From Dehalococcoidia bacterium (GTDB lineage Bacteria; Chloroflexota; Dehalococcoidia; Lucifugimonadales; Australimonadaceae): a stretch of 64,000 bases of DNA. Under the pieces are notes generated by a model. The model did no database searches. It was not told the origin of the DNA and worked only from the letters and a program-made list of their open reading frames with translations. Made by a program: the position numbers and the translations under genes. Positions 250 through 24,162 of this stretch are shown here, piece by piece. Within the stretch, counting starts at the first letter, position 1. Each line of letters begins with the position of its first letter. Location: the NCBI GenBank assembly GCA_965201135.1, contig OZ241751.1, positions 1,460,248 to 1,524,247 of the forward strand, written 5' to 3'.

Positions 250-1107
250 TTATTTTCGGCTAGCGTCGCCGAATTCGCGGATGAGGTCGCACGCCCAGCG
301 TTTCGCTTCGGGGTAGTAGTCGCAGTCCAAGACGAACTCTTGGCCGCGCCCCACGCTCTGGAGGTAGACATGCTCAGGGTCGTCTTTCTTGGTCGTCCAG
401 CGATTGAACTTTGTGCGTTTGGGATCGTGATACGTCAGGGCGGACTTCCTGCCAGCAGGGTAAAACCACCGCGGCAACTTCCAGTGCGACTTGGACTGAC
501 CCGGCTCCGTGAGCAAGAGGCGATCATCGAAGCAAGGGAACACGCCCGCCCCTTTCACGCCCGTTCCCTTAAGGCCGCCGCATAGGTCCAGTTGGGCGGA
601 AGCCACGTAGCGCGTGTTGTTGTTGCAGCACATGCACCGCAACTTGTCCTCGCCTTCTTGCGGCCTGTGTTTTTCTCCGACTTGGAGCCAACCCCACAAG
701 ACGTGTTGCTCGGGGCACTGCGTATACCGCCAGCCGTCATTCGTCCGCGCAACGCGGCGGTAGAGGCCGAAGAACAGGAAGAGGTCGCCTTCCTTCACGC
801 CCTGGTTGTTGAGGTGCCCGACGGCGGCTTTCACTTGGTCAAACAACCTAGGGCAGCCGTCCGGTGGGTTGAGGTCAGGGCTCATGTGAACGGGGTGATT
901 GGCATTGATGCGACCCCGAGTGAGATTCTGCGCCAACTCCCCGATGTCCGCTTGGGGATGGCGCAGGTCTCCATAGGTGAGACGAGGGCGCCCGCTATCG
1001 GGTATCGGCAGCGAGAACATCGCGTCGTCATGGAAGATAGGGCTGGCGCAGCCCCCGGAATTCTCCCCGCTGTCAAAGCCCTTCCTGCTGAGGATGAGTT
1101 TCACCAT
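250..1107 (-). CDS. hypothetical protein, possibly Nmad3-like (nucleotide-modification-associated domain 3)
   Basis: Clean 285-aa ORF starting MVKLILSRKGFDSGENSGGCASPIF. From memory, this ILSRKGFDS..GG..SPI N-terminus resembles the Nmad3 family; this is recollection, not a search. The gene is somewhat AT-richer than its flanks and is bracketed by hairpin repeats at 185-202 and 1152-1176. Confidence 0.6.
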   Translation of the reverse strand: MVKLILSRKGFDSGENSGGCASPIFHDDAMFSLPIPDSGRPRLTYGDLRHPQADIGELAQNLTRGRINANHPVHMSPDLNPPDGCPRLFDQVKAAVGHLNNQGVKEGDLFLFFGLYRRVARTNDGWRYTQCPEQHVLWGWLQVGEKHRPQEGEDKLRCMCCNNNTRYVASAQLDLCGGLKGTGVKGAGVFPCFDDRLLLTEPGQSKSHWKLPRWFYPAGRKSALTYHDPKRTKFNRWTTKKDDPEHVYLQSVGRGQEFVLDCDYYPEAKRWACDLIREFGDASRK

Positions 1108-1562: not shown

Positions 1563-1631
1563 ACGTCTAGATTAGCCCCGCAAGCGCCGCGCCGTCAACC
1601 GGCCATTGTCCCTGACCGTCCCCTTACGACC

Positions 1632-1797
1632 GTCATTCCCGCGAAAGCGGGAACCTACCCCATAGGCCGCCGCCCCCCCATGCCCGTCATTCCGGCGTAG
1701 GCCGGAATCCATTCGGCGCGATAGCGCCATAGACGGGGTTGCGGCCCGTCTCCCCCGGTCCCCAGGCGCATCGTCATTCCCGCGAAAGCGGGAACCC
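1632..1797. repeat. three family-A hairpin repeats
   Basis: gtcattcccgcgaaagcgggaacc (1632-1655), gtcattccggcgtaggccggaatc (1685-1708) and gtcattcccgcgaaagcgggaacc (1773-1796). Confidence 0.85.
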
Positions 1798-1912
1798 ACC
1801 CCTGCCCAACTGCGACAAACACCCCTTGCGCGAACGCCCCCTATATCCCTACGATGAACCCGGTCGGTCGAGCAATGCGGGCGCGGATCGGCCGAGGCGG
1901 CTGGAGAGGGGC

Positions 1913-4075: not shown

Positions 4076-5794
4076 TCACTCTCCCTCTTTCCCCCGCGCG
4101 GCCGCCGCCAGCATCTCCCGCGCCGCTTGCTCGAGGCGGGCGCCGCCGCCCAGCATTCCGGCGATTTCGGCGACGCGCTCCTCTTCGTCCAGCGCCTCCG
4201 CGCCGGAGTACGCCCGCCCGCCGCGCACGGCCTTCCCCACGCGGTAGTGCGCGTCCGCCCACGCCGCTATCTGCGGAAGGTGCGTCACGCACAGCGTCTG
4301 CGCGCTCCGCCCCACCGTCCATAGTTTCCTGCCGACCGCCTCGCCGGCGCGCGCGCCTATCCCCGCGTCCACCTCGTCGAACACGAGCGAGGCCGCGCCG
4401 GACGCGGAGCGCAGCGCGCCGTTGAGCGCCAGCATCATCCGCGACGTCTCGCCGCCCGACGCGATCTTCGCCAACGGCCTCGCCGCCTCGCCGGGGTTCG
4501 TCCGCGCCGTGAACGTCACGCGGTCGACGCCGCCATGCTGGGGGACGAGCGTTCGCCCGTCCGGCGCGGGCAGGCCGTCCTCGTCCTCTTCCTGCTCCAC
4601 GAGGACGGCGATTTCGGCGCGCTCCATCCCCAACTCGCGCAACTCGACGGCGACGGCTTCGCGGAGCGCGTCCGCCGCGGCGCTCCGCGCCTGCGACAGT
4701 TCCCACGCGAGCGCGCCGGCCTCGCGGAGGGCGCTCCGCAGCGCCTGATCCAACGCGGCGCGGCGGGCGTCCGCGCTCTCGATGCTCTCCAAGCGGCGCC
4801 GCGCGTCCTCTCCGAACGCGACGACGGCGGCCTCGTCGCCGCCGTACTTGCGCTTGAGGCGGCGCAGCGTCTCAACGCGCTCCTCGATCTCCGCGAGGCG
4901 GGCCGGGTCGGGCTCGGCGGACTCCGCGACGGCGCGGATTTCGCGGGCCGCGTCGGCGATTTGCGCGGCGGCGGATTCGACGGCGTCGGCGGGGGCGCGC
5001 AGCAGGTCGCCGGCGCCGGGCGCGTGGCGGAGACGGCGCGCCGCCTCTCCGGCGAGGCCGGCGGCGTTCGCCTCGCCCTCGCTCAGCGCAAGCCACGCGG
5101 CCTCGCACGCCTCGCGGACGGACTCCGCGTTTCGCAGCAAGTCGCGCTCGCGGATAAGCGCGTCCTCCTCGCCCTCCGTCGGCGCGGCGGCTTCGATCTC
5201 GTTCGCCTGAAACTCCAGCAGGTCGCGCCGGTGCTCCGCCTCCTGCGCGGCGGCTTCGGCGTCGGCGGCTTCGCGCCTCTTGCGCCGCGCCTCCGCGACC
5301 GCGCTCTCGACGGCGGCCCGGCGCTCCGCGAGGCCGGCGAACGCGTCCAGCGCGCGCAGTTGGAAGCGCGGATCGAGCAGCGAGAGGCTTTCGCCTTGCC
5401 CGTGGATGTCCACGAGCGCGGCGCCGGCGCTTCGCAGAACGCTCGCGGGCGCGGCGCGGCCGTTCAGGCGGGAGACGGCGCGGCCTTCCCGATGCGTTTC
5501 GCGGTAGAGCGCCACGACGCCGTCATCGCCGTCGGTTTCGACGCCGAGTTCCGCGAGGCGCTCTCGCGCAAGGGGCGCGCCGCGCGCGTCGAACACGGCC
5601 TCGACGCTCATAGACGCCGCTCCGCTCCGCATCATTCCCTTGTCCGCCGGGCCGCCGAGCGCGAACGCGAGCGCGTCCACCAGCAGCGACTTTCCGGCGC
5701 CCGTCTCGCCCGTGATGACGTTGAGCCCGGGCCCGAACGCGAGGCGGGTCTCTTCAATAACGGCGAGGTTGCGGACGGCGAGTTCGACGAGCAT
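4076..5794 (-). CDS. recN: DNA repair protein RecN
   Basis: 572 aa. N-terminal MLVELAVRNLAVIEE..ITGETGAGKS (Walker A), a long coiled-coil middle, and C-terminal ASGGETSR signature plus LVFDEVDAG (Walker B). Confidence 0.95.
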   Translation of the reverse strand: MLVELAVRNLAVIEETRLAFGPGLNVITGETGAGKSLLVDALAFALGGPADKGMMRSGAASMSVEAVFDARGAPLARERLAELGVETDGDDGVVALYRETHREGRAVSRLNGRAAPASVLRSAGAALVDIHGQGESLSLLDPRFQLRALDAFAGLAERRAAVESAVAEARRKRREAADAEAAAQEAEHRRDLLEFQANEIEAAAPTEGEEDALIRERDLLRNAESVREACEAAWLALSEGEANAAGLAGEAARRLRHAPGAGDLLRAPADAVESAAAQIADAAREIRAVAESAEPDPARLAEIEERVETLRRLKRKYGGDEAAVVAFGEDARRRLESIESADARRAALDQALRSALREAGALAWELSQARSAAADALREAVAVELRELGMERAEIAVLVEQEEDEDGLPAPDGRTLVPQHGGVDRVTFTARTNPGEAARPLAKIASGGETSRMMLALNGALRSASGAASLVFDEVDAGIGARAGEAVGRKLWTVGRSAQTLCVTHLPQIAAWADAHYRVGKAVRGGRAYSGAEALDEEERVAEIAGMLGGGARLEQAAREMLAAAARGKEGE

Positions 5795-5877
5795 CGGCGC
5801 GCCGATTATACGTTGCGGCGGCTAGGCGAGAGCGAGGGATTGGTTCCCGCTCACGTGGACAGGGCGGCATCCAGTAG

Positions 5878-5985
5878 GCGCCATTTACTCCTGCGCTCCG
5901 GCGGGTGATGAGGCCAGATTGGGGCCGAAACGGGGCGTTTTGGGGCTGAATGAGGCCGAAATGAGGCCAAATGGAGCCACTGCCG
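5878..5985 (-). repeat. family-D intergenic element (inverted partner of 1913-2012)
   Basis: See 1913-2012. Also contains short internal repeats ggcc(t/c)cat(t). Confidence 0.5.
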
Positions 5986-6091
5986 TCGCGGGGGCGTCCA
6001 GGCCGCCGTTGGGTTCGGAGCGCGAGGTCATAGGGGCAGCGTAGGGGAGAGGGGGCGGACGGCGCAAGGGGCGAATGGCAGAGGGGAGGGA

Positions 6092-6634
6092 TCAGCGCGG
6101 GGGCGGCTCCAAGCCGAACAGGCCGAACATCTCCTCTCGGTTCAACTGCGCGGAGAGGTCGAGCGACACGTCGTCTATGAGTTGGTCGAACAGCCCCTGC
6201 TTGCGCTCCAGTATCCGGTCTATGCGCTCCTCAATGGTGTCGACGCAGGAGTATTTGATCACGTTCACCTTGACCGTTTGGCCGATGCGATGGCTGCGGT
6301 CCTCCGCTTGGCGCTCGACGGCGGGGTTCCACCACCTGTCGAGGTGAAACACGTAGGACGCCTCCTGCAGATTCAGCCCCAAGCCTCCGACGCGGAGGGA
6401 GAGGACGAGCGCCTTATGCTCGCCGCGGGATTTGAAGCGCTCGATGATGGGAGTTCGCTCTTCCTGCGGCGTGGCGCCGGTGATGGCGAGCGGGGCGAAC
6501 TCGCGCAGGCGGTTGACGACCGCCTCCACGCCCGCCTCGCGGGTTACGTATTGCGAGAACACCAACGCCTTGTGCCCTTGCGCCGAGAGGAGTTCAACAG
6601 TTAGGGCCGCGCGAGTGGCGGCGGGGCGGCCGGC
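6092..6634 (-). pseudogene. 3' fragment of an SNF2-family helicase gene (Helicase_C part only)
   Basis: The frame is open only from the TAG at 6635-6637. It reads ..RAALTVELLSAQGHKALVFSQY.. (motif IV), SLRVGGLGLNLQEA, DRWWNPAVERQAEDRSHRIGQ (motifs V-VI). The entire SNF2_N ATPase lobe is absent; the next sequence upstream is the divergent methyltransferase gene. Confidence 0.8.
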
Positions 6635-6753
6635 CTATGGACGAATAGACGCGCATTAGGATACGATTGCGCCTGTGGTGGACTTCAACCGGAATGCCCA
6701 ACTCCTTGCCAGCCGTTGGCCCTCACGGGCGGGGCGATAGGAGCGAGGGCGCG

Positions 6754-9700
6754 ATGGCGAACGCGGCGGACGCGCTCCGGCGCTACTTGGACGAGTTGCA
6801 GGCGAACATCGCCCAGGGCAACGCGACGGAGCACACGCACCGCCCCGCGCTCAAGGCGCTGCTCGAATCGCTCGGCGGGGATGTCGTCGCCACCAACGAG
6901 CCCGCGCATATCGCCGTCGGCGCGCCCGACTTCGTCGTCTCTCGAACCAGCGGGGCGCGCCTCACCGTCGGCTACGTCGAGGCCAAAGACGTCGGCGTCG
7001 ATCTGAACGCCATTGAGAAGGACGCCGCCCGCGCCCGGCCGTCCACGCCCAACGGCGAGCAACTCAAGCGCTACAAGGAGAACCTCCCCAACCTGCTGCT
7101 GACGAATTACACGGAGTTCCGTTGGTGCGTCGACGGCGAGCGGCGCATGACGGCGGTCCTCGCCGAGACGGACGAGCGCGGACGGCTCGCGGGGAGCGCG
7201 GCGGCGGCGGAATCGGCGGAGCAACTGCTCGACGCTTTCCTGCGCCACAGCCTCGTCAAGGTCGCCACGGCGATGGAACTCGCGCAGCGCATGGCGCAGA
7301 TCACGCGGCTAGTCCGTGACGCCGTCCGGCGCGGCTTCGAAAACAATTCGGTGTCGCAGCCCTTGCGCGACTTCTACGCGGCGTCCGAAAGCGTCCTGAC
7401 GCCCGGGCAGGAGCCGGCGGAGTTCGCCGATATGTTCGCGCAAACGCTCGCCTACGGACTCTTCGCCGCCCGCGTGAACGACCGCCCCGGCACATTCCGC
7501 CGCGAGGTCGCCGCTCACCGCATACCGGCGGCCAACCCCTTCCTCCAACAACTCTTCAACACCGTCGCAGGGCCGGACCTCAGCGCGGAGCCGTTCGTGA
7601 ACTTCGTGGACGACCTGACGCAACTCCTCGACCAGGCGGAGATGGACAAGGTTCTGGACGGCTTCGGGAACCGCGACGCGAAGGAAGACCCGATTCTCCA
7701 CTTCTACGAGACGTTCCTCGCTGTCTACGACCCAACCCAGCGTGAGCGCAGAGGCGTCTACTACACGCCGGAGCCCGTCGTCTCCTACATCGTCCGCTCC
7801 GTCGACCTCCTGCTGCGCGACCGCTTCGATCTCCGAGAAGGGCTCGGCGACCACTCCACGACTCAATATCAGCAGGACGACGGCGACGGCGGCGCGGTCA
7901 AGAAAAAGGCGCACCGCGTCTTGATTCTCGACCCCGCCTGCGGAACGGGGACGTTCTTGTACGCGGTGATAGACCTCCTGCGCGAGAGGTTTTTCGCTAG
8001 CGGCAACGCCGGGATGTGGAATCCGTCGTACATACGAGAGGCGCTCCTGCCTCGCCTGTTCGGATTCGAGTTGCTGATGGCGCCCTACGCGATGGCGCAC
8101 CTCAAGTTGGGCATGCAACTCGCCGCGATGGATATGCCGAAAGCGCGCCGCGCCACGTGGGGATACAAGTTTCGGCAGGGGGAACGGCTCGGCGTCTACC
8201 TCACCAACGCGCTGGAGCAGGAGGAGCGGCAGGTTCAGGCCGCGTTCGGCCCGATGCGCGCCATCACCGACGAGGCCAACGCCGCATCAGGCATTAAGCG
8301 CGACCTCCCCATTATGGTCGTGCTCGGCAACCCGCCGTATTCCGGCCACTCCGCCAACGCCAGTTGGCGCAACGGCAAGCGAACGTGGATCGGCCGCGCC
8401 ATCGAGGACTACAAGCGCGTGGACGGCCAGCCGCTTGGCGAAAAGAATCCCAAGTGGCTGCAGGACGACTACGTCAAGTTCATCCGCTTTGGCCAGTGGC
8501 GCATTGAGCAGTCGGGCGGAGGCGTTCTCGCCTTCATCACCAACCACGCCTACCTCGACAACCCGACGTTCCGCGGTATGCGCCAGCAGTTGATGGAGAC
8601 GTTCACCGACGTCTACGCGCTCGATCTGCACGGCAACGCCCGCTCCAGAGAGTCCGCGCCGGACGGCGGCCCGGACCAGAACGTCTTCGACATTCAGCAG
8701 GGCGTCGCCATCGCGCTCTTCGTCAAAGAGCCGAACAGGAGCGGCCCCGCCGAAGTGCGCCACGCCGAAATTTGGGGGACGCGGCAGGCCAAGTATGAAA
8801 CGCTCGCCGCGTCCGACGTCGCGACGACCAATTGGACGCGCCTCGCGCCCGCCTCGCCCAACTACCTCTTCAAACCGTGGGACACGACGCTCGAGGAGGA
8901 ATACCGCCAATGGCCAAGCGTGACGGAGATAATGCCCCTCAACTCCGTCGGCGTGGTGACCGCCCGCGACGAATTGACCATCCGCTGGACGAGCGAGGAG
9001 GCTTTCGACGTCGCGCGGGACTTCGCCGCCTTGCCGCCCGACGCGGCGCGGGCGCGGTACCGGCTGCCTAAGGACACGCGGGATTGGCAAGTCCCCCTCG
9101 CTCAGGAGGACGTTAGGGACTCCGGGGTGAACAAAGATTTGATCGCGCCGATCCAGTACCGTCCGTTCGACGCGCGCTACACCTACTACACGGGGAATAG
9201 CCGAGGATTCCTCTGTATGCCGCGCCCCGAAGTGATGCGGCATATGCTGGCGAACGGGAGGCGCAACATTGCGCTGATCGCCTGCAGGCAGCAGTCCCGC
9301 GCAGGCGAGCCGTGGAACCTCTGCGGCGTCAGCGACACGATCATCGAGGCGTGCGCCATCTCCAACATTACGAGCGAGATCAATTCGCTCTTCCCGCTCT
9401 ACCTCTACCCTTCCGAGCAGGAGGCGGCGCAGGGGCTCTACGAGCCCGGTTCGCGGCGCGCCAACCTCTCCCCCGACTTCATCGCCTCCGTCGAGGAACG
9501 AACCGGCTTGCGGTTCATCGCGGACGGACGCGGCGACTTGCAAGCGGAATTCGGGCCGGAGGACATCCTGCATTACGTCTACGCCGTTTTCCACGCGCCG
9601 TCCTACCGCGAGCGTCACGGGCAGTTCCTCCGCGCCGATTTCCCCCGCGTTCCGCCGCCTGCCAACGCGCCCATCTTCCGCGCGCTCGCGGAGGTAGGAG

Positions 9701-10122
9701 CCGCGCTGACATCCGCGCATCTGCTGGACGCCGCCGCGCTGGACGTCTCCGACCTCCGCTTCCCCGTCGTCGGCGAGGGAACCATTGAGAAAGGCTTCCC
9801 CCGCTACTATCCGCCGGGGGAGACTCCGCCAGGCGGAGACAGCCCGCTCGAGCAGGGCAGGGTCTACGTCAACGACAGCGACCTTCTGCAGTACGGACAG
9901 TACTTCGAAGGGGTCGCGCCGGAGGTATGGGCGTTCCGCGTCGGCGGCAATCAGCCGATGGAGAAATGGCTGCGCGACCGCGTCGGGCGACCGCTCTCTT
10001 TCGATGACCAGCAGCGTTACATACAGATGGCCGCCGCCTTGCGCGACACCGTCCGGCTGATGGGCGAGGCGGACGCGGCCATCGCCGCGCACGGCGGCCT
10101 CTGGGGGGAGGGGGAGGGGTAG
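6754..10122 (+). CDS. fused PD-(D/E)xK nuclease-like / N6-adenine DNA methyltransferase / target-recognition protein (type IIG or helicase-less ISP-like)
   Basis: 1122 aa from ATG 6754 (aggag sits 12 nt upstream). N-terminus ..HTHRPALKALLE..GAPDFVV..GYVEAKDVG.. (HsdR-N-like PD..ExK). SAM motif LILDPACGTGTFL, catalytic VVLGNPPYSG, and a C-terminus ..FEGVAPEVWAFRVGGNQPMEKWLRDRVGRPLSFDD.. like the type-ISP/MmeI-family specificity-domain end. Confidence 0.85.
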   Translation: MANAADALRRYLDELQANIAQGNATEHTHRPALKALLESLGGDVVATNEPAHIAVGAPDFVVSRTSGARLTVGYVEAKDVGVDLNAIEKDAARARPSTPNGEQLKRYKENLPNLLLTNYTEFRWCVDGERRMTAVLAETDERGRLAGSAAAAESAEQLLDAFLRHSLVKVATAMELAQRMAQITRLVRDAVRRGFENNSVSQPLRDFYAASESVLTPGQEPAEFADMFAQTLAYGLFAARVNDRPGTFRREVAAHRIPAANPFLQQLFNTVAGPDLSAEPFVNFVDDLTQLLDQAEMDKVLDGFGNRDAKEDPILHFYETFLAVYDPTQRERRGVYYTPEPVVSYIVRSVDLLLRDRFDLREGLGDHSTTQYQQDDGDGGAVKKKAHRVLILDPACGTGTFLYAVIDLLRERFFASGNAGMWNPSYIREALLPRLFGFELLMAPYAMAHLKLGMQLAAMDMPKARRATWGYKFRQGERLGVYLTNALEQEERQVQAAFGPMRAITDEANAASGIKRDLPIMVVLGNPPYSGHSANASWRNGKRTWIGRAIEDYKRVDGQPLGEKNPKWLQDDYVKFIRFGQWRIEQSGGGVLAFITNHAYLDNPTFRGMRQQLMETFTDVYALDLHGNARSRESAPDGGPDQNVFDIQQGVAIALFVKEPNRSGPAEVRHAEIWGTRQAKYETLAASDVATTNWTRLAPASPNYLFKPWDTTLEEEYRQWPSVTEIMPLNSVGVVTARDELTIRWTSEEAFDVARDFAALPPDAARARYRLPKDTRDWQVPLAQEDVRDSGVNKDLIAPIQYRPFDARYTYYTGNSRGFLCMPRPEVMRHMLANGRRNIALIACRQQSRAGEPWNLCGVSDTIIEACAISNITSEINSLFPLYLYPSEQEAAQGLYEPGSRRANLSPDFIASVEERTGLRFIADGRGDLQAEFGPEDILHYVYAVFHAPSYRERHGQFLRADFPRVPPPANAPIFRALAEVGAALTSAHLLDAAALDVSDLRFPVVGEGTIEKGFPRYYPPGETPPGGDSPLEQGRVYVNDSDLLQYGQYFEGVAPEVWAFRVGGNQPMEKWLRDRVGRPLSFDDQQRYIQMAAALRDTVRLMGEADAAIAAHGGLWGEGEG

Positions 10123-10328
10123 GCGGCGGCGGACACATTCGCGTCCACGGCGCCGACCGAGTCGCCGAGCCGGCTTTGCAACCGTTTGATAGCGGCGATG
10201 TTCCCCTCTTTGGCGGCCTTCTGCAGGTCCTTCGCCAACTTCGTGAGGGCGGACGCCGACTTCAGCGCGGCGTCCGCCGCGTTCTCCACGTCGGCGAACG
10301 CTTGCTCCAATCCGCCTATTCTGCCCAT
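10017..10328 (-). CDS. small coiled-coil ORF, probably the 5' fragment of a disrupted gene
   Basis: ATG at 10328 with gggaga 9 nt upstream. The first 68 codons (MGRIGGLEQAFADVENAADAALKSASALTKLAKDLQKAAKEGNIAAIKRLQSRLGDSVG..) look protein-like. From 10122 downward the frame merely overlaps the converging methyltransferase 3' end and turns low-complexity. Confidence 0.3.
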   Translation of the reverse strand: MGRIGGLEQAFADVENAADAALKSASALTKLAKDLQKAAKEGNIAAIKRLQSRLGDSVGAVDANVSAAAYPSPSPQRPPCAAMAASASPISRTVSRKAAAICM

Positions 10329-10417
10329 ATCTTCGCGTCTCCCGCTAATGCGCCTCGCGGAATATAGCACACGCGGCGCGGGGAACGCAACGGCCGGGCG
10401 GCCGGGCGCCTAGTCCC

Positions 10418-11161
10418 CTACCTGCGACGCGCGCGCCATAGGAAGGCGGCCCCCGCCGCGCCGAGCGCGACCGCAGCGGCGACCGCCGCCCACGCGATGG
10501 CCGCGCCTGAGCCGCCCGCATCGGGCGCGTCGGGCGTCGCCGTGGGAACGGCGGCGGCCGTGGGAGGCGGCGCGAGCGTCGAGGCCGGGGCAAGCGCGGT
10601 CGCGGCGGCGGTAGGCGTCGGAGGATGAGTCGCCGTCGGCGTGGGCGTTGGGGCGGGCGTCGCCGTTGGCGTTGGAATCGGCGTAGGCGTCGGGGTGGGC
10701 ACGACGCTCTCCGGGCACGGCGCGGCGACGGGCGGAGCGGCGCCCTCGCCGAAGCGCAGCGTGACCGGCTCGCTCACGAGGCACGGCGTTCCCAGCAGAG
10801 GGAAGGCGTAGGTCAGATCGGCCTGCAGGTCCCCGTTCAGGAGAAAAACGACCGGCTCTCCCGCGTAGTCGAATCCGGGAGGGCCCACGAGCAGGCAGAG
10901 AGCGCCGCATCCGAACCCTCCGTCGCGCACGGGAATCGCCGTCGGACGCTCCCAGTCGCCCACGCGGACGATCAACTCGCCCTCCGCGATAGGCTCGCCG
11001 TCGAGCAGCGCTATGCCGCCCTCCCCGTAGACGATTGGAAACGGCGGAAAGCCGCCGGGGGGAGCGTCTCCGTCCTGCGCGAGAAGAGCGGGCGCGAGCG
11101 CGAACGCCGCAGCGAGCAGCGCCGCGGCGGCGATGACGAGCGGGCGGGAGAGACGAACCAT
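10418..11161 (-). CDS. secreted/cell-surface protein with a Pro/Thr-rich linker and a C-terminal anchor
   Basis: Signal-peptide-like MVRLSRPLVIAAAALLAAAFALAPALLAQ, a globular ~130 aa, the linker PTPTPTPIPTPTATPAPTPTPTAT.., then GGSG plus a hydrophobic helix plus WRARRR. Confidence 0.7.
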   Translation of the reverse strand: MVRLSRPLVIAAAALLAAAFALAPALLAQDGDAPPGGFPPFPIVYGEGGIALLDGEPIAEGELIVRVGDWERPTAIPVRDGGFGCGALCLLVGPPGFDYAGEPVVFLLNGDLQADLTYAFPLLGTPCLVSEPVTLRFGEGAAPPVAAPCPESVVPTPTPTPIPTPTATPAPTPTPTATHPPTPTAAATALAPASTLAPPPTAAAVPTATPDAPDAGGSGAAIAWAAVAAAVALGAAGAAFLWRARRR

Positions 11162-11170
11162 GGGGAGTGG

Positions 11171-11176
11171 ATTGTA
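11171..11176 (-). promoter_or_regulatory. candidate -10 box TACAAT, 9 nt upstream of the ATG at 11161
   Basis: The minus strand reads cgccgcctagcgcTACAATccactccccATG. Confidence 0.3.
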
Positions 11177-11338
11177 GCGCTAGGCGGCGCGGGCGGCGGG
11201 CGCGGGGGATTCCGCCTGCGCGGGCAGGATGGCGCGCCTCCCTTCGCGCCTTCTCCGCCTTCCCGCCCCCCTTGCCCGCGCGCCTGATTCGCGGTTAGTA
11301 TCATTAGCCTTGCATTCCCGCCGCCCGGAGTTCTCCCT

Positions 11339-14038
11339 ATGATCGCCAACCCGCCCCGCGAGCCCCTTCCCAAAGCCTACGACCACGCCCAGGTCGAGCG
11401 CAGGCTCTACGAGTGGTGGGAGCGCTCCGGCTACTTCAGGGCGGTCCCGGACCCGGACAAGCAGCCCTTCGCCATCATTATGCCGCCCCCGAACGTGACG
11501 GGCGAACTGCACCTCGGCCACGCAATGACCGCCGCCATTGAGGACGCGCTCATCCGCCATCGCAGAATGAAGGGCGACGCCGCGCTCTACCTCCCCGGAA
11601 CCGACCACGCCGGCATCGCCACGCAAGTCGTCGTCGAGCGCCAACTCGCAGCCGAGGAGACGACGCGCCACGACATCGGCCGCGAGGCGTTCCTCGAGCG
11701 CGTGTGGGAGTGGGTCGGCAAGACCGGCGACACGATAGACAACCAGCACCGCCGGCTCGGCGCGTCGTGCGACTGGGAGCGCAAGACGTTCACGCTCGAC
11801 CCGGGGCCCGTCCGCGCCGTCCGAACGACGTTCAAAAACCTCTACGACGAAGGGCTGATCTACCGCGGCGAGCGCATCATCAACTGGTGCGTCAGTTGCC
11901 GCACCGCCCTCTCCGACCTGGAGGTGGAGCACGCGGAGGAGCAGGGCAGCCTCTACTACATCCGCTACCCCTACGAGGACGGCTCCGGCCACCTCGCGGT
12001 CGCCACGACGCGCCCCGAAACGCTGCTCGGCGACGTCGCCGTCGCGGTCAATCCCGGCGACGCGCGATACGCCGGCGCGGTCGGCAAGCGCGTCCGCCTG
12101 CCCGTGCTGGGGCGCCTCATTCCCGTCATCGCCGACGAGGCCGTCTCCGCCGAGTTCGGCGCCGGCGCGCTCAAGATAACGCCCGGACACGACCCCAACG
12201 ACTTCGCCATCGGCGAGCGGCACGGCCTCCCCGTCGTCAACGTCCTCAACGAGGACGGAACGCTCAGCGATGCGGCCGGCCCATACGCCGGCATGGAGCG
12301 ATTCGCGGCCCGCGAGGCCGTCGCCGCCCAACTGGAGCGCGAGGGGCTGCTGGAGAAGATCGAGCCGCGCGTCCACTCCGTCGGCCACTGCCAGCGCAGC
12401 GGCGACGTCGTCGAGCCCATCGTCTCGCTCCAATGGTTCGTGAGGATCGCCCCCATCGCCGACCCCGCCCTCGCCGCCGTCCGCGACGGACGCATCCGCA
12501 TCGTGCCGGAGCGCTTCGTCCGCGTCTACGAGAACTGGATGGAGAACATCCGCGACTGGTGCGTCTCCCGCCAACTCTGGTGGGGGCACCGCATCCCCGT
12601 CTGGTATTGCGCCGCCTGCGCCCATCCCACCGTCGCCGCGGACGACCCGTCGCAGTGCGAGTCGTGCGGCGGGCGAGACCTCGCGCAGGACGAGGACGTC
12701 CTCGACACGTGGTTCTCCTCCGCTCTCTGGACGCACTCCACGCTCGGCTGGCCCGACGCCAACCCCGACCTCGACTACTTCTATCCCACCTCCGTGATGG
12801 AGACGGGCTACGACATCCTCTTCTTTTGGGTCGCCCGGATGATTATGATGGGGATGAAGAATATGGGCGACGTTCCCTTCCGAACCGTCTACCTGCACGG
12901 CCTCGTCCGCGACGAGCGCGGGCAGAAGATGAGCAAGACGAAGGGGAACGTCCGCGACCCGATAGACGCCATCGAGCGCTACGGCGCCGACGCCCTCCGC
13001 TTCGCGCTCACCACGGGCAGCGCGCCGGGCAACGATCTGCGCTTCGGCGACGACCGCCTCGAGGCCGCCCGCAACTTCGCCAACAAACTCTGGAACGTCG
13101 GGCGCTTCGTCATCGCGCAGGTCGAAGGCCGGGACGACCTCGACGGCTGGAACGACCCCGCGCGCCTGCGCGACCACCGGCAAGACCGCTGGATCCTCTC
13201 CAAAGCGCAGCAGACCGCCGTCCGCGTCAACGACCTCATCGCCGAATTCCAACTCGGCGAGGCCGAGCGCGTTCTCCACGACTTCCTCTGGAGCGACTTC
13301 GCCGACTGGCACATCGAACTCGCCAAAATCCGCCTGCGGAACGGCGACGACCGCCCCCGCCGCGTCCTCGCCCACGTGCTGGAGCGCTCCCTCCGCCTCC
13401 TCCATCCCTTTATGCCCTTCGTAACGGAGGAGATCTGGCGCCGCCTGACCGCCATCCTCCCCAACGAGGCCAACCTCCCCGAATCCATAATGATCGCCCC
13501 CTATCCCGACCCGAAGGCGCGCCTCTCCGCCGAGCAACTGAACGCCCGCCGCGAGGAGGACGCCCCCGCCTCGGACGAGGTCGAACTGCTCATCGACGTC
13601 GTTCGCGCCATACGCAACGTCCGCGCCGAGTTCAAGGTCGACCCCCGCGTTTCGCTCGACGCCGCCGTCGCCGCGCCGCCCGCGGCGGCCGCCGCGCTGG
13701 AGGACGAGCGCGACGCGATACGCGCCCTCGCCCGCGTCGGCGATATTCGCTTCGGAGAGGCGGACGCCGGGCCCGACAAGGTCCGCCTCGTCGCGCGCAA
13801 CGCCGCCATCGCGCTCGACGTCGTCGGCGCGGTCGACTTGCGCGCCGAGCGCGAGCGGCTGGAGGGCGAGGCGGAGCAGGAGCGGACGCGCCTCGCCGGG
13901 CTCGAGGGGCGCCTCGCCAACTCGCAGTTCGTCGAGAAGGCGCCCCCCGACGTCGTGGAGCGCGAGCGCGCCAGGCTGCGGGACGGGCGTGAGCGCTTGG
14001 AGCGCATCGCGCAACTCCTGCGCGAGATAGGCGCGTAG
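11339..14038 (+). CDS. valS: valine--tRNA ligase
   Basis: 899 aa. Class I signatures GELHLGHAMT (HIGH) and QKMSKTKGN (KMSKS), an editing-domain region, and a C-terminal coiled coil. Confidence 0.97.
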   Translation: MIANPPREPLPKAYDHAQVERRLYEWWERSGYFRAVPDPDKQPFAIIMPPPNVTGELHLGHAMTAAIEDALIRHRRMKGDAALYLPGTDHAGIATQVVVERQLAAEETTRHDIGREAFLERVWEWVGKTGDTIDNQHRRLGASCDWERKTFTLDPGPVRAVRTTFKNLYDEGLIYRGERIINWCVSCRTALSDLEVEHAEEQGSLYYIRYPYEDGSGHLAVATTRPETLLGDVAVAVNPGDARYAGAVGKRVRLPVLGRLIPVIADEAVSAEFGAGALKITPGHDPNDFAIGERHGLPVVNVLNEDGTLSDAAGPYAGMERFAAREAVAAQLEREGLLEKIEPRVHSVGHCQRSGDVVEPIVSLQWFVRIAPIADPALAAVRDGRIRIVPERFVRVYENWMENIRDWCVSRQLWWGHRIPVWYCAACAHPTVAADDPSQCESCGGRDLAQDEDVLDTWFSSALWTHSTLGWPDANPDLDYFYPTSVMETGYDILFFWVARMIMMGMKNMGDVPFRTVYLHGLVRDERGQKMSKTKGNVRDPIDAIERYGADALRFALTTGSAPGNDLRFGDDRLEAARNFANKLWNVGRFVIAQVEGRDDLDGWNDPARLRDHRQDRWILSKAQQTAVRVNDLIAEFQLGEAERVLHDFLWSDFADWHIELAKIRLRNGDDRPRRVLAHVLERSLRLLHPFMPFVTEEIWRRLTAILPNEANLPESIMIAPYPDPKARLSAEQLNARREEDAPASDEVELLIDVVRAIRNVRAEFKVDPRVSLDAAVAAPPAAAAALEDERDAIRALARVGDIRFGEADAGPDKVRLVARNAAIALDVVGAVDLRAERERLEGEAEQERTRLAGLEGRLANSQFVEKAPPDVVERERARLRDGRERLERIAQLLREIGA

Positions 14039-14074
14039 CGGGGCGCGGGAGAGGGAACCTCGCCCTTATTTTGA

Positions 14075-14301
14075 GGCGCGCAAGCGCCGAAATCCCCCTC
14101 TCCCTATAAGGGGAGAGGACGCCGCGAACGCGGCGGGAGAGGGTACTGCGGACGGGGCGCGACGCGCCCCGTCTCCCTCGTCCCCCAGGCGCCTCGTCAT
14201 TCCCGCGAAGCGGGGACCTACCCCGCCCCCCCATGACCGTCATTCCCGCCCTTCTCCGTCATTCTCGCCCCTTCTCCGTCATTCCCGCGTAGGCGGGAAT
14301 C
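14075..14301. repeat. composite hairpin mosaic in inverted order: GC hairpin, family C, family B, then family-A copies
   Basis: ggcgcgcaagcgcc; ccccctctccctataaggggagaggacgccgcgaacgcggcgggagagggtactgcg (C, inverted); gacggggcgcgacgcgccccgtc (B); gtcattcccgcgaagcgggg..; two partial cttctccgtcattc units; gtcattcccgcgtaggcgggaatc. Confidence 0.85.
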
Positions 14302-14330
14302 TCGTATCCGTCGCATCGCATTGCCATCGC

Positions 14331-16190
14331 CTAGAACCTGATGAAGAACCTGTCGAGGGGGACGTCGCCCGGGTTTGGGGGCGCGGGCGCGTCGCCCGCG
14401 CCTTCTGGATTCCGGCCTACGCCGGAATGACGGTTTATGTCGCCATCGTCGGGCGCGTCCGTAGGCGGGGCGCCGCCAGTACCCTCTCCCGCCGCTTCGC
14501 GGCCTCCTCTCCCCTTATAGGGAGAGGGGGATCCGGCGCCCGCGTTCGCGGGCGCGGCGGCGGCGGCGTTGCGCTCCGCGCCGTTGGGGGCGGGATTCCC
14601 GCCTTCGCGGGAATGACGGTCATTATGGGCGGCGCCATTGCCGTCCGCGCCATACCCGGCGCCAACGCCGTCCGTCGCGCGCCTTTTGCCGTCCGGCGCA
14701 TGCCCATCGCCATCGTAGGCGCCGTTGCGCTCCGCGCCGGTGGGGGCGGGGCGCTGGGGGACGGGCACGCCTATGCCGTTCACGCCGGCGGCGCCGTTGC
14801 GCGCGGCGCGGAGGAAGGGCTCGTTGCCCGTCCAGATTTGCAAGGACGGCGGGCGCATAAACGCCATCGCGAGCGCGTCGGCCAGGTCGGGCGAGGGCAG
14901 GCCCTTCGTCCGCATCGCCTTCTTGCTCTCCAACTTCACTTGGCCGGAACTCGACACGTCGTAGCGCAAGGTCAGCAACTGCCCGGCGAGGGCGTCGTCG
15001 TTCGGCAGCGCGATCAGGCGCTCCTCCAGCAGGCGCCGCAACTCCCAGAAGATCTCCGAGCGCAGGTTGCCGAACTGCACCGGATGCGGAGCGCGACCGC
15101 CGAACTGCACGCCGTAGACGGGCGCGCCCAACTCGCGCAACCGGTCAACGACGCCCCCGCCGACGCCCGTCTCGTCGACGAACACCGCCTCGGCGCCCAA
15201 CTCGCGCGCCATCGAAGACGCCTCCCATGACAGCCTCATCGTGTCCATGCCGACGAACGCCTTCATGGCGATCACGCGCTGCCCGCGACGGGCGATCAGC
15301 GCCGACTTGTCGTAGCCGAACCGCGCCACGTCAACCCCGATGTAGACCGGCTGGAGCGCGTCCTCCTCCGCCGTGGGGGCGCCCTCGCCGCTTGGGGCGT
15401 CGTCCGCCATCGCCGCGTCCACCGCCTTCCGCCCCGTGAGCGAGTCGTCCTGCGCGTCCGGGAACTCCGCCAGCACGCCCGCCATAAACAAAGGATGGTC
15501 GCGCCCCGTGTCCGCCTCCCTGTCCGCGATGTCCTCCTCGTTCATCAGCCCGTATATCTCGATGGGCTCGCCCGTGAAAGCCGGCGTGTCGTAGGCGGAT
15601 ATCTTGACGCGCTTGTAGCGGCTGCGGAGCGCGCGGTGCGACTCGTAGAACTCCCCGCTCGTGGAGAGCGCGTTGCCGACCAGCAGCACTTTGGACGGGT
15701 TGAGGCGTTTCAGCGCTTCCTCGAACGCGGGCTTCATGCCGTGCGCCTCGGTGACGACGACCATCATATTGGGCGAGTGGAAGCCCTGCAGGTTCTCCGG
15801 CCTGTTGGTCGAGAAGCCGATGGCGAAGCGGTCGTCGTCGATTTCATACCGGTTGCGGAGCATCTTGCCGGACAACGGGACGCTCGCCGATTTGTAGGCG
15901 ATCCGCATTTCGCGCCAGACGATCTCCTCGATCTGCCGCTGCGTCGGCCCCGTCACCACCACTTTGGCGTGGGGGCGGGTTTCGAGCCACCAGAGGATGG
16001 CGCGGGCGGCTGTCCAGTCTTTGCCGGAGGCGTAGCAGCCGACGACGGAGGTCTTGCGTTCCTGCGCGAGGAGTTCGAGCGTCTCGCGCTGCTTTTCGTA
16101 GGGCTCGCCGGAGTCTGGGAGGACGTCGCGGACGAAGGCGACGGGGTCGTCGCGGTATCGGGCGAGGGGGATGTGGGGCTCTGGGGGCAT
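14331..16190 (-). CDS. phage terminase large subunit-like protein (ATPase plus RNase H-like nuclease) with a repeat-derived C-terminal tail
   Basis: 619 aa. Contains KTSVVGCYASGKDW (Walker A-like), MMVVVTEAHG (Walker B-like) and nuclease-type acidic motifs YIGVDVARFG, VFVDETGVGG, SPDLADALAMAF. Residues after ~450 are Gly/Ala/Pro low complexity translated from hairpin repeats at 14409-14621. Confidence 0.75.
   Translation of the reverse strand: MPPEPHIPLARYRDDPVAFVRDVLPDSGEPYEKQRETLELLAQERKTSVVGCYASGKDWTAARAILWWLETRPHAKVVVTGPTQRQIEEIVWREMRIAYKSASVPLSGKMLRNRYEIDDDRFAIGFSTNRPENLQGFHSPNMMVVVTEAHGMKPAFEEALKRLNPSKVLLVGNALSTSGEFYESHRALRSRYKRVKISAYDTPAFTGEPIEIYGLMNEEDIADREADTGRDHPLFMAGVLAEFPDAQDDSLTGRKAVDAAMADDAPSGEGAPTAEEDALQPVYIGVDVARFGYDKSALIARRGQRVIAMKAFVGMDTMRLSWEASSMARELGAEAVFVDETGVGGGVVDRLRELGAPVYGVQFGGRAPHPVQFGNLRSEIFWELRRLLEERLIALPNDDALAGQLLTLRYDVSSSGQVKLESKKAMRTKGLPSPDLADALAMAFMRPPSLQIWTGNEPFLRAARNGAAGVNGIGVPVPQRPAPTGAERNGAYDGDGHAPDGKRRATDGVGAGYGADGNGAAHNDRHSREGGNPAPNGAERNAAAAAPANAGAGSPSPYKGRGGREAAGEGTGGAPPTDAPDDGDINRHSGVGRNPEGAGDAPAPPNPGDVPLDRFFIRF
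14409..14621. repeat. family A - family C - linker - family A mosaic inside the 3' end of the terminase-like ORF
   Basis: attccggcctacgccggaatgacgg (14409-14433); ccagtaccctctcccgccgcttcgcggcctcctctccccttatagggagagggggatccgg (14477-14536); gattcccgccttcgcgggaatgacggtc (14594-14621). Confidence 0.85.
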
Positions 16191-16225
16191 GGCGTCCTCC
16201 TTTCGTTTGTGGGTTGCGGGGGCGG

Positions 16226-16347
16226 GGTTCCCGCTTTCGCGGGAATGACGGTGAGGGTGGGGAATGACGGGGCGCTTGCGCGCCCCGACTGCAGTACCCT
16301 CTCCCGCCGCGTTCGCGGCGTCCTCTCCCCTTATAGGGAGAGGGGGA
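16226..16347. repeat. A-B-C composite hairpin mosaic
   Basis: gttcccgctttcgcgggaatgacgg; gacggggcgcttgcgcgccccgac; gcagtaccctctcccgccgcgttcgcggcgtcctctccccttatagggagaggggg. Confidence 0.85.
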
Positions 16348-16378
16348 CAGGGCGGCGTTGCGTTGTGTCATTGATATG

Positions 16379-16407: not shown

Positions 16408-16461
16408 TGGGGCGCTGTCATATTGGGGACGATTAGGGGGGGATTGAGGGCGAGGCGCCCA

Positions 16462-24158: not shown

Positions 24159-24162
24159 CCCT

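What the first reader, a model, noticed from the sequence alone, without database searches (positions are those of the whole stretch)
6092..10370. Fused nuclease-like/methyltransferase/TRD gene bracketed by two truncated gene fragments; possible replacement of the core of an SNF2 helicase gene or decay of a defence island
The 1122-aa protein (6754-10122) combines three parts: an N-terminal PD..ExK module (GAPDFVV..GYVEAKDVG), a gamma-class N6A methyltransferase (DPACGTGTFL, NPPY), and a type-ISP/MmeI-like specificity C-terminus (GGNQPMEKWLRDRVGRPLSFDD). It has no helicase. Both neighbours are fragments on the opposite strand. At its 5' side is only the Helicase_C third of an SNF2 ATPase (6634-6092, motifs IV-VI intact, frame closed by a TAG exactly where the SNF2_N lobe should begin). 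At its 3' side is only ~68 protein-like codons of a coiled-coil N-terminus (10328-10123), after which the frame merely runs into the methyltransferase 3' end. Read along the minus strand the order is N-terminal fragment, then the methyltransferase on the other strand, then the SNF2 C-terminal fragment. This would fit one ancestral helicase gene or operon whose middle was replaced by the 3.4-kb methyltransferase gene. An SNF2 helicase beside a large adenine methylase also recalls DISARM class 1 (DrmD plus DrmMI), but no DrmA/B/C are present.
Basis: partly seen in the sequence, partly recalled or inferred. Interest (0 to 1): 0.65.

Follow-up and report, generated by a model that had tools for sequence, protein, structure and literature searches.

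The report
Restriction enzyme gene replaced operon core
A complete single-protein restriction-modification gene sits where the middle of a four-gene helicase operon used to be, leaving only the operon's two ends as dead stubs; this is a well-resolved but ordinary case of defence-gene turnover.

Summary
The gene at 6754-10122 encodes an intact 1122-aa Type IIG enzyme: an N-terminal PD..ExK nuclease, a gamma-class N6-adenine methyltransferase and a Type_ISP_C specificity domain, with no ATPase. Both neighbours are gene stubs. 6092-6598(-) is the last 168 codons of an SNF2 helicase. 10123-10328(-) is the first 68 codons of an unnamed ~270-aa protein, called gene A here.

In relatives these two genes are the first and last genes of one operon: gene A, two BrxD-like ATPases, then SNF2. 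All four genes are colinear in 75 of 80 fetched genome loci. In the window about 4 kb of operon core is replaced by a 3.5-kb segment carrying the restriction-modification (RM) gene on the opposite strand, and both junctions are sharp.

The same RM gene (95-97% nt identity) lies in at least four other gene contexts in sister genomes, with nearly the same ends (about -44 to +9). It therefore moves as a gene-sized module without a recognisable mobility gene.

A contig of the same length as the window's source contig (2,943,307 bp) also carries an intact gene A and an intact SNF2. The gutted copy is therefore probably redundant.

The DISARM, Type ISP and MADS readings are rejected. This is a new member of known kinds, of modest interest.

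The parts
6092..6598 (-). 3' relic of an SNF2 helicase gene: the last 168 codons (helicase C-lobe plus tail) and the native stop codon. It has no usable N-terminus, so it is a pseudogene stub.
   Evidence: Pfam Helicase_C E 1.8e-21. blastn gives 95.3% identity to L001 5981-6487 and 92.9-93.2% to L089, L090 and L091, and every alignment ends at 6598. 166 of 168 aa are identical to the C-terminus of the intact SNF2 P0309, which lies on a contig of the same length as the window's source (read).
6599..6620 (.). Junction filler of unknown origin, 22 nt by blastn. Clear homology to the RM upstream region only starts at 6636, so the filler may be up to 37 nt. It supplies the 12 spurious codons that keep the SNF2 frame open up to the TAG at 6635-6637.
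   Evidence: No match in any fetched locus.
6621..6753 (+). Upstream region that came in with the RM gene; it is presumed to hold the promoter and the ribosome-binding site. The last ~44 nt (6710-6753, with AGGAG 12-16 nt before the ATG) are shared by every copy of the gene.
   Evidence: Window 6621-10132 aligns to L089 9161-5671 at 83.7%. 6710/6720 onward aligns to L004, L005, L173, L174 and L175. The simple sigma-70 scan found no site, so the promoter is inferred, not shown.
6754..10122 (+). Intact 1122-aa Type IIG restriction-modification enzyme. Nuclease motif D59..E76-A-K78 at nt 6925-6987. Methyltransferase motif I at nt 7930-7959. NPPY at nt 8329-8340. Type_ISP_C specificity domain at residues 725-1103, roughly nt 8926-10062.
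   Evidence: PADLOC REase_MTase_IIG 3.8e-254; Pfam Type_ISP_C 2.2e-70. Sequence matches to solved structures: DrdV 7lo5 at 7e-34, LlaBIII at 6e-30, LlaGI at 7e-27. dN/dS against four other copies is 0.17-0.33.
10123..10328 (-). 5' relic of gene A, the first gene of the ancestral operon: 68 codons plus 2 nt encoding the N-terminal helical hairpin. It is cut directly after the RM stop codon.
   Evidence: Homologues P0002-P0004, P0069 and P0070. blastn to L001, L006, L089, L090 and about 40 other loci starts at 10114-10123. The structure model of full-length gene A puts residues 7-69 in two long helices.
10329..10394 (-). Native upstream (5'-untranslated/promoter) region of the ancestral operon, still attached to the gene A relic.
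   Evidence: Homology to L001, L002, L003, L089, L090 and L091 runs to 10394 and stops there in all of them.
10017..10328 (-). Chimeric 103-aa ORF recorded as a called protein in the public collection (P0001). It is the gene A relic read on through 35 codons antisense to the RM 3' end. It is an annotation artefact, not a gene.
   Evidence: P0001 is 100% identical to the window ORF and is a singleton cluster. The tail has no homologue.
4076..5794 (-). Left flank: authentic recN, a housekeeping gene.
   Evidence: NCBIfam TIGR00634 recN, 466 bits against a cut-off of 408.
10418..14038 (.). Right flank: a conserved 247-aa protein (10418-11161, -) and valS (11339-14038, +). Synteny with a sister genome starts exactly at 10417.
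   Evidence: Pfam tRNA-synt_1 E 1.3e-138. L088 aligns to window 10417-14178 at 97.3% nt. The 247-aa protein has a 15-member cluster at 90% identity.

Best explanation
A four-gene operon once lay between recN and the 247-aa gene next to valS. Its gene order was gene A (~270 aa, fold with no match), a ~318-aa BrxD-like protein, a ~429-aa BrxD-like AAA+ ATPase, and a ~650-aa SNF2 helicase. One deletion-insertion event by illegitimate recombination removed about 4 kb, from gene A codon 69 to SNF2 codon ~479. It put in a 3.5-kb segment carrying a solitary Type IIG restriction-modification gene, its own ~130-nt upstream region and under 10 nt of 3' flank, on the opposite strand.

The event happened either at this site or in a donor whose cassette was then recombined in through the two operon arms.

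The RM gene is intact and under purifying selection. By homology to MmeI and DrdV it most likely works alone. Its C-terminal domain would read a short asymmetric site, the gamma-class methyltransferase would put m6A on the host's sites, and the N-terminal PD..ExK domain would cut unmodified DNA at a distance from the site.

The two operon ends are non-functional stubs. Their loss is probably tolerated because a contig of the same length as the source contig holds an intact gene A and an intact SNF2.

Shown: the homologies, the breakpoints, the other contexts of the RM gene, and the purifying selection. Inferred: the recombination mechanism, enzyme activity, where the event took place, and that the two intact genes lie together in the same genome.
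For: - Operon ends. Window 6081-6598 and 10123-10394 align to the 3' and 5' ends of the same operon in L001, L003, L006, L089, L090 and L091. Nothing between them aligns.
- Operon conservation. The four genes are colinear in 75 of 80 genome loci from several phyla. Gene content was read.
- Junctions. The right junction falls directly after the RM stop codon. The left junction is at 6598, followed by a 22-37-nt filler.
- Mobility of the RM gene. The same gene at 94.6-97.3% nt identity lies between other genes in L004, L005, L173, L174 and L175. The shared DNA always runs from about 6710/6720 to 10128/10131.
- No general linkage. None of 80 distant RM loci carries the operon genes, and none of 80 SNF2 genome loci carries this RM family.
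- RM integrity. All motifs are present, the HMM matches cover the full length, and dN/dS is 0.17-0.33.
- Rarity. The chimeric ORF P0001 is a singleton among about 15 billion proteins, so the arrangement is rare and lineage-specific, and possibly recent.
- Intact gene A (P0070) and intact SNF2 (P0309) on a contig of 2,943,307 bp, the length of the window's source contig.
- Literature. Insertion and substitution of RM genes without mobility genes, including into operon-like structures, is documented (PMC2853133).
Against: - No empty-site or pre-insertion allele was found at this exact recN/valS position. The sister genome L088 has other genes beyond 10417. Whether the replacement happened here is therefore not shown.
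- In L089 a more distant copy of the RM gene (84% nt) lies directly after the SNF2 gene of a variant operon and shares the -133 upstream segment with the window. The RM-operon proximity may therefore have an older common origin than a single fresh insertion.
- Enzyme activity and specificity are untested.
- No promoter was detected by the simple scan.
- That P0070 and P0309 lie on the window's own contig, and next to each other, is inferred from the contig length. Their DNA could not be fetched.
Confidence: 0.8

Rival explanations
1. Local rearrangement of an L089-like ancestor. The RM gene first landed just downstream of the SNF2 gene, convergent with it as in L089. It was later moved into the operon by duplication and deletion, or by excision and re-insertion, removing the core.
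For: L089 has the order gene A', SspD-like, GIY-YIG, DndB, SNF2, then the RM gene convergent with SNF2. Window 6621-10132 aligns to it, including 133 nt upstream of the RM start codon that L004 and the other close copies lack. Read on the minus strand, the window order equals L089 segments [750-972], [5671-9161], [5116-5618].
Against: - The window's SNF2 stub keeps the canonical stop codon and at least 11 nt of canonical downstream sequence, as in L090 and L001. In L089 the last codons and the spacer are altered by the RM insertion.
- The window's RM coding sequence is 97% identical to the L004 and L173 copies but only 84% to L089.
- Deriving the window from L089 needs at least three events.
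Confidence: 0.1
2. Imported cassette. The replacement happened once in another genome. The composite of gene A stub, RM gene and SNF2 stub then entered this genome by homologous recombination through the two arms (about 270 and 510 nt), replacing the core of a resident operon copy as an allelic substitution.
For: Both arms are ordinary homology to an operon that is common in this community. Allelic substitution of RM loci through conserved flanks is documented (PMC2853133). The two arms differ in their closest relatives: the SNF2 arm is 95% identical to L001, while the gene A arm is about 80% identical to L001 and closest to the P0069 allele.
Against: No second contig with the same composite exists in the collection. 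P0001 is a singleton. The unequal arm divergence is equally well explained by gene A being intrinsically variable.
Confidence: 0.2
3. Functional partnership. The RM enzyme works with the helicase remnant or the gene A remnant, or the locus is a reduced DISARM-like, MADS-like or split Type ISP system.
For: An SNF2 helicase beside a large adenine methylase recalls DISARM class 1. There is a weak PADLOC mad2 match for the RM protein (6e-8) and a mad3 match for the neighbouring ATPase (1e-28).
Against: - The SNF2 stub lacks the whole N-lobe (motifs I-III) and has no start codon at the homology boundary.
- The mad3-like neighbour is true recN.
- The RM protein has no DrmMI match, and no DrmA, DrmB or DrmC gene is present.
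- The same RM gene lies with no helicase nearby in five other contexts.
- 80 distant relatives also lack the operon genes.
Confidence: 0.03
4. Assembly artefact. A metagenome assembler joined strains at the repeated RM gene and so created false neighbours.
For: The source is a metagenome-derived 2.94-Mb contig. The RM gene is a multi-context repeat within the community.
Against: A strain switch inside the repeat would give flanks already seen beside the RM gene elsewhere. Here both junctions are unique and lie outside the shared repeat, at 6598-6620 and at 10122/10123. The two flanks also belong to the same operon in the correct order and orientation.
Confidence: 0.03

Closest known systems
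Type IIG / IIL single-chain restriction-modification enzymes (MmeI family; DrdV, PDB 7lo5)
   Same: One polypeptide with an N-terminal PD..ExK nuclease, a gamma-class N6A methyltransferase (motif I DPACGTGTFL, motif IV NPPY) and a C-terminal specificity domain, with no partner genes. It matches the PADLOC Type IIG model at 3.8e-254 and DrdV at 7e-34. The MmeI architecture is described in PMC2582602.
   Different: At 1122 aa it is longer than DrdV (1029 aa). The best sequence match to DrdV covers only residues 314-817. The recognition site, the cut position and whether one strand or both are methylated are all unknown.
Type ISP enzymes (LlaGI, LlaBIII)
   Same: They share the methyltransferase and the Type_ISP_C specificity domain. 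LlaBIII scores 6e-30 and LlaGI 7e-27, and Pfam Type_ISP_C scores 2e-70.
   Different: Type ISP enzymes carry a helicase-like ATPase between the nuclease and the methyltransferase in the same chain. This protein has none, and the only helicase sequence nearby is a dead stub of an unrelated SNF2 gene.
RM gene insertion and substitution without mobility genes (Furuta, Abe and Kobayashi 2010, PMC2853133)
   Same: An RM gene appears at different loci in close relatives with no transposase or integrase, replaces unrelated genes between conserved flanks, and can land inside operon-like structures.
   Different: No long target duplication is seen at the window's junctions. The replaced DNA here is the core of another helicase/ATPase operon, and both of its ends survive as recognisable arms.
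BrxD ATPase plus helicase pair of type 2 BREX (PMC12839542)
   Same: The ancestral operon pairs BrxD-like ORC/Cdc6-type ATPases (Pfam PF10923, E 5e-17) with an SF2 helicase.
   Different: The helicase here is SNF2-type, whereas BrxHI is Ski2-like according to the paper. There are two BrxD-like genes plus an unmatched gene A. The matches fall far below the NCBIfam BrxD cut-off (47 bits against 350). Whether other BREX genes lie near the canonical loci was not checked.
DISARM class 1 (DrmD plus DrmMI)
   Same: An SNF2-type helicase sequence next to a large adenine methyltransferase.
   Different: The RM protein does not match any DrmMI model. The SNF2 stub scores better against ZorD and DpdE (1e-32) than against DrmD (2e-16). 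DrmA, DrmB and DrmC are absent, and the helicase's true partners are BrxD-like genes.

Membership tests
Type IIG (IIL / MmeI-like) RM enzyme | Nuclease, methyltransferase and specificity domain in one polypeptide | tested here: met
   A single 1122-codon ORF. PADLOC PDLC03610 scores 3.8e-254 and PDLC03631 covers residues 6-738. Pfam N6_Mtase and Type_ISP_C both match.
Type IIG (IIL / MmeI-like) RM enzyme | N-terminal PD-(D/E)xK catalytic motif | tested here: met
   PDFVV at residues 58-62 and E76-A-K78 (D59-x16-ExK). This is a sequence motif only; catalysis was not tested.
Type IIG (IIL / MmeI-like) RM enzyme | Gamma-class N6-adenine methyltransferase motifs I and IV, in that order | tested here: met
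   DPACGTGTFL at 393-402, then NPPY at 526-529. Pfam N6_Mtase and MmeI_Mtase match.
Type IIG (IIL / MmeI-like) RM enzyme | No separate methyltransferase or specificity gene needed or adjacent | tested here: met
   Both neighbours are stubs of unrelated genes. Other copies of the gene sit alone between metabolic genes.
Type IIG (IIL / MmeI-like) RM enzyme | Site-specific m6A methylation and cleavage at a fixed distance from the site | not testable with these tools
   Needs a methylome or biochemistry. The only support is purifying selection (dN/dS 0.17-0.33).
Type ISP RM enzyme | Helicase-like ATPase domain within the same polypeptide | tested here: not met
   No ATPase or helicase family matches the 1122-aa protein. 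LlaGI and LlaBIII align only from the methyltransferase onward.
DISARM class 1 | DrmA, DrmB and DrmC genes together with DrmD and DrmMI | tested here: not met
   The RM protein has no DrmMI match. The flanking genes are recN, a 247-aa protein with no family match, and valS. The SNF2 stub's intact homologues sit in a BrxD-like operon.
MADS (methylation-associated defence system) | mad2 methyltransferase with mad3 and further mad genes | tested here: not met
   The mad2 match is only 6e-8, and NCBIfam MADS2 gives 18 bits against a cut-off of 720. The mad3-like neighbour passes the recN equivalog cut-off.
Gene A / BrxD-like / BrxD-like / SNF2 operon (unnamed; defined here from L006, L009, L090 and 75 of 80 loci) | Four colinear genes in the order A, B, C, SNF2 | tested here: not met
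   The window keeps only gene A codons 1-68 and SNF2 codons ~480-647. Genes B and C are absent from the whole 64-kb window. It is a relic of the operon, not a member.
Gene A / BrxD-like / BrxD-like / SNF2 operon (unnamed; defined here from L006, L009, L090 and 75 of 80 loci) | The stubs are homologous to the operon's first and last genes, in the right order and orientation | tested here: met
   The SNF2 stub is 94% aa identical to L090 and 166/168 identical to P0309. The gene A stub is 75% identical to P0070 and 56/68 identical to P0069. Both lie on the minus strand with gene A upstream.
Type 2 BREX | BrxC, PglX and PglZ core with BrxD and BrxHI | not tested
   Only the four operon genes were examined in the canonical loci. 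The BrxD-like matches fall far below the equivalog cut-off.

The most novel reading that the evidence does not exclude
The RM gene may be a discrete self-mobilising module with fixed ends (about -46 to +9 around the ORF, with a longer -133 form) that inserts without any recombinase, perhaps at breaks that it makes itself. The surviving operon arms could then act as built-in homology arms that let the cassette overwrite intact copies of a competing, still uncharacterised gene A/BrxD-like/SNF2 defence operon in other cells. That would be one defence gene spreading by gutting another.
Probability: 0.12. Interest if true: 0.6.

Novelty: new member of a known kind. Interest (0 to 1): 0.3.

Why it matters
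This is a clean natural example of how defence genes turn over. One gene-sized restriction-modification module overwrote the core of another helicase/ATPase operon, and both breakpoints are resolved to within a few bases.

It has three practical uses:
- It corrects annotation. The 103-aa ORF on record in the public collection and the Helicase_C ORF are stubs, not genes.
- It identifies a highly mobile Type IIG gene. That gene also marks rearrangement points in a group of closely related genomes, whose nearest named relatives are Dehalococcoidia MAGs.
- It points to a four-gene operon (gene A, two BrxD-like genes, SNF2) that is conserved across several phyla. Only weak BrxD and SngB matches were found for it in PADLOC, and gene A has no family match and no fold match in the PDB. 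It would be a reasonable candidate for experimental testing as a defence system.

None of this changes current understanding of restriction-modification biology.

Tried and rejected
- DISARM, Type ISP and MADS readings were all tested and rejected.
- I first took L001-L003 (gene A' of 143 aa, SspD-like, DndB, SNF2) to be the ancestral operon. tblastn against 80 genome loci showed that they are themselves core-replaced variants. The canonical middle genes are two BrxD-like genes.
- dN/dS of the stubs, as a clock for the truncation, was uninformative. The gene A N-terminus is variable even between intact copies (0.2-2.6). The SNF2 tail is nearly invariant everywhere.
- Flanking direct or inverted repeats and target-site duplications at the junctions: none convincing. 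The one 19-nt inverted match (6755-6773 with 10270-10288) is not at a junction, and its gene A arm encodes residues (ENAADA) that the intact allele P0069 also has.
- Promoter and terminator scan of 5700-10500: nothing useful.
- A structure model of full-length gene A was good (pLDDT 82), but a Foldseek search of the PDB found nothing with E below 1.
- The DNA around the intact gene A (P0070) could not be fetched.
- The literature search for DUF2791 with SNF2 returned nothing.

Full report
**Setting.** The window is high-GC DNA (about 0.60-0.76 in 1-kb windows). A third-position GC filter and family searches give the real genes around the finding:
- recN at 4076-5794(-), which passes the TIGR00634 equivalog cut-off (466 bits against 408).
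- A Helicase_C-only ORF at 6092-6634(-).
- A 1122-codon ORF at 6754-10122(+).
- A short ORF at 10017-10370(-).
- A conserved 247-aa gene at 10418-11161(-).
- valS at 11339-14038(+).

The feature is therefore a roughly 4.6-kb islet between housekeeping genes, not part of a large defence island.

**The large gene.** It is a complete Type IIG restriction-modification (RM) enzyme.
- PADLOC REase_MTase_IIG models match at 3.8e-254 (PDLC03610) and 1.8e-99 (PDLC03631, residues 6-738).
- Pfam gives Type_ISP_C at residues 725-1103 (2.2e-70) plus N6_Mtase and MmeI_Mtase.
- The nearest solved structures by sequence are DrdV (7lo5, 7e-34) and the Type ISP enzymes LlaBIII and LlaGI. The Type ISP enzymes align only from the methyltransferase onward.
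- No ATPase or helicase family matches the protein, so it is not Type ISP.
- It matches no DrmMI model, and the mad2 match is marginal.
- Against four other copies of the gene, dN/dS is 0.17-0.33, which indicates purifying selection.

**The two stubs.** The short ORF's first 68 codons have homologues that run on to 143 aa (P0002-P0004) and, in the full-length family, to 265-272 aa. I call this protein gene A.

In metagenome contigs L090 and L091 and in genome loci L006 and L009, gene A is the first gene of a colinear operon:
- gene A, about 269 aa, with no family match;
- a ~318-aa BrxD-like protein (PF10923);
- a ~429-aa BrxD-like AAA+ ATPase;
- a ~650-aa SNF2 helicase.

A genome scan with the SNF2 protein returned 80 loci. 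Most are Dehalococcoidia, with Binatia, Caldilineaceae, Latescibacterota, Vicinamibacterales, Acidimicrobiia and Proteobacteria as well. In 75 of the 80, all four genes are present and colinear. Two loci are cut by contig ends, and three are disrupted by transposases or rearrangement.

So the two stubs in the window are the first and last pieces of one operon, in the correct order and orientation on the minus strand.

**Breakpoints.**
- blastn places SNF2 homology at window 6081/6092-6598. Identity is 95.3% to L001 and 92.9-93.2% to L089, L090 and L091, and every alignment ends at 6598.
- Gene A homology, with its upstream region, lies at 10114/10123-10394.
- The right junction falls immediately after the RM stop codon (TAG at 10120-10122), with a few bases of GCGGCG microhomology.
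- On the left, 22-37 nt (6599-6620/6635) match nothing. The RM gene's own upstream region follows.
The last 12 "codons" of the open frame are therefore spurious.
- Synteny with a sister genome (L088, 97.3% nt over the 247-aa gene and valS) begins exactly at 10417, which fixes the islet's right border.

**The RM gene elsewhere.** Its cluster at 90% protein identity has 14 members. The contexts that could be fetched all differ:

| Locus | Left neighbour | Right neighbour | Calls |
|---|---|---|---|
| L004 | Zn-dependent alcohol dehydrogenase (ADH) | dienelactone hydrolase (DLH) | 20 |
| L005, L174 | ADH | DLH fragment, then glycosyltransferase | 21, 47 |
| L173 | aroC | 503-aa gene | 46 |
| L175 | aroC | DLH | 48 |
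| L089 | SNF2 of a variant operon (convergent) | amidase | 36 |
| Window | SNF2 stub | gene A stub | this finding |

- In all five close copies (94.6-97.3% nt), the DNA shared with the window runs from 6710/6720 to 10128/10131. That is the ORF plus about 34-44 nt upstream and 6-9 nt downstream.
- L089 is more distant (83.7%) but shares 133 nt upstream.
- No transposase or integrase accompanies the gene in any of these loci.
- The flank combinations (aroC or ADH on the left, DLH or other genes on the right) look like shuffling at or through the gene.
- More distant relatives are abundant: 583 candidate stretches encoded a relative, and the 80 loci kept are 42-55% aa identical. None of the 80 fetched has the operon genes within 7 kb.
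- None of the 80 SNF2 genome loci carries this RM family. The two are therefore not a conserved pair.

**Variant operons.** L001, L003 and L089 carry a different replacement of the same operon. Gene A is cut at residue 123. An SspD-like/PAPS-reductase-like gene and a DndB (DGQHR) gene, plus a GIY-YIG gene in L089, take the place of the BrxD-like pair. The SNF2 gene lacks its first ~70 codons. The operon core has therefore been overwritten at least twice, with different cargo.

**Intact genes on a contig of the same length.** The window's own proteins (P0001, the RM protein, ValRS and the 247-aa protein) are all recorded on a contig of 2,943,307 bp. A contig of that same length also carries a full-length gene A (P0070, 272 aa) and a full-length SNF2 (P0309, 653 aa), and neither lies within the window. 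I take this to be the same contig; the tools report only contig length.
- The SNF2 stub is 166/168 identical to the P0309 tail. That tail is also identical in P0307 and P0310, so this reflects conservation.
- The gene A stub is only 75% identical to P0070 and is closer to the P0069 allele, so it is not a fresh duplicate of the resident gene.
- I could not fetch the DNA around these intact genes.
- The chimeric ORF P0001 is a singleton in the 15-billion-protein collection, so this composite is lineage-specific.

**Explanation.** The simplest account is one deletion-insertion by illegitimate recombination. It swapped about 4 kb of operon core for the 3.5-kb RM segment, either at this site or in a donor from which the cassette was recombined in through its two arms.

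Deriving the window from an L089-like arrangement needs several steps. It also conflicts with the canonical SNF2 stop codon and downstream sequence that the window retains.

A functional partnership between the RM enzyme and the stubs is very unlikely, because the SNF2 stub lacks the whole ATP-binding lobe.

Misassembly is unlikely, because both junctions lie outside the repeated RM DNA and both flanks belong to one operon.

The enzyme's mode of action (one chain that recognises, methylates and cuts) is inferred from homology to MmeI-type and DrdV-type enzymes (PMC2582602). It was not tested.

**Comparison with what is known.** RM genes that move without mobility genes, substitute for unrelated genes between conserved flanks and land inside operon-like structures were described by Furuta and colleagues (PMC2853133). 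The enzyme is a new member of the Type IIG family.

The ancestral operon resembles the BrxD-helicase pair of type 2 BREX only loosely. Its helicase is SNF2-type rather than Ski2-type, and its BrxD matches are far below the equivalog cut-off. Gene A has a confident model (pLDDT 82) with no PDB match at E below 1.

**Verdict.** The finding is well resolved but ordinary. Its main side-products are the very mobile gene-sized RM module and an apparently uncharacterised, widely distributed four-gene operon.

Noticed in passing
L006, L009, L090, L091 and 75 of the 80 loci L006-L085 (e.g. L090 301-5330): A conserved four-gene operon: gene A (~269 aa), a BrxD-like protein (~318 aa), a BrxD-like AAA+ ATPase (~429 aa) and an SNF2 helicase (~650 aa). 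It is found in Dehalococcoidia, Binatia, Caldilineaceae, Latescibacterota, Vicinamibacterales, Acidimicrobiia and Proteobacteria MAGs. PADLOC gives only weak BrxD and SngB matches. Gene A has no family match and no PDB fold match. It is a possible uncharacterised defence system.
   Followed up: partly
L001 1690-6487; L003; L089 816-5628: A variant of the same operon in which the core is replaced by an SspD-like/PAPS-reductase-like gene and a DndB (DGQHR) gene, plus a GIY-YIG gene in L089. Gene A is cut at residue 123 and ends in a conserved 20-aa tail (AIGQPRCDAAGLTNPVHSLE). The SNF2 gene lacks about 70 N-terminal codons. This may be a new DndB/SNF2 combination or a second decay route.
   Followed up: partly
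window 9227-9387 compared with L005: The RM copy in L005 is about 95% identical overall, but identity drops to about 32% over a ~160-nt patch inside the specificity domain. L004 and L173 stay at 92-100% there. This suggests a swapped recognition patch and a changed target site.
   Followed up: no
L004, L005, L173, L174, L175 (the RM gene at about 8001-11369 in each): Near-identical RM genes have recombinant-looking flank combinations (ADH or aroC on the left; DLH, a glycosyltransferase or a 503-aa gene on the right). L005 also has a ~570-bp duplication of the ADH 5' region around a displaced DLH fragment. The gene seems to mark rearrangement breakpoints.
   Followed up: partly
window 1631-1807, 14040-14750, 16215-17004, 20796-21091, 48500-48620, 53508-53581, 56103-56887: A dispersed intergenic repeat family with palindromic GGGAGAGGG...CCCTCTCCC cores, including a ~51-nt tandem array at about 16592-16876. 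Copies also occur in the intergenic DNA of L001, L004, L173 and L174. The 317-aa ORF at 16614-17567 overlaps the array and is probably not a gene.
   Followed up: partly
window 250-1107 (-): An Nmad3 (nucleotide modification associated domain 3) protein (Pfam E 2e-59). The same Nmad3 / small HTH-type gene / alpha-beta hydrolase block lies a few kb from the RM gene in L175, in inverted orientation (the HTH Pfam match is for the L175 gene; the window's 110-aa ORF has no match).
   Followed up: no
window 24154-25797 (+): A 547-aa DNA methyltransferase (PADLOC MTase_II 2e-64, with Type III methyltransferase models also matching). It is a second methyltransferase in the window, and its partner genes were not examined.
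   Followed up: no
window 6755-6773 and 10270-10288: A 19-nt inverted match (18 of 19 bases) between the first codons of the RM gene (MANAADA) and codons 14-20 of the gene A stub (VENAADA). It is not at a junction, and the intact allele P0069 also encodes ENAADA at this position, so it is probably chance.
   Followed up: partly
L037 4823-6791; L038 10001-13494: L037 has a ~1.6-kb insertion splitting gene A. L038 has two SNF2 genes in tandem. These are further signs that this operon is often rearranged.
   Followed up: no
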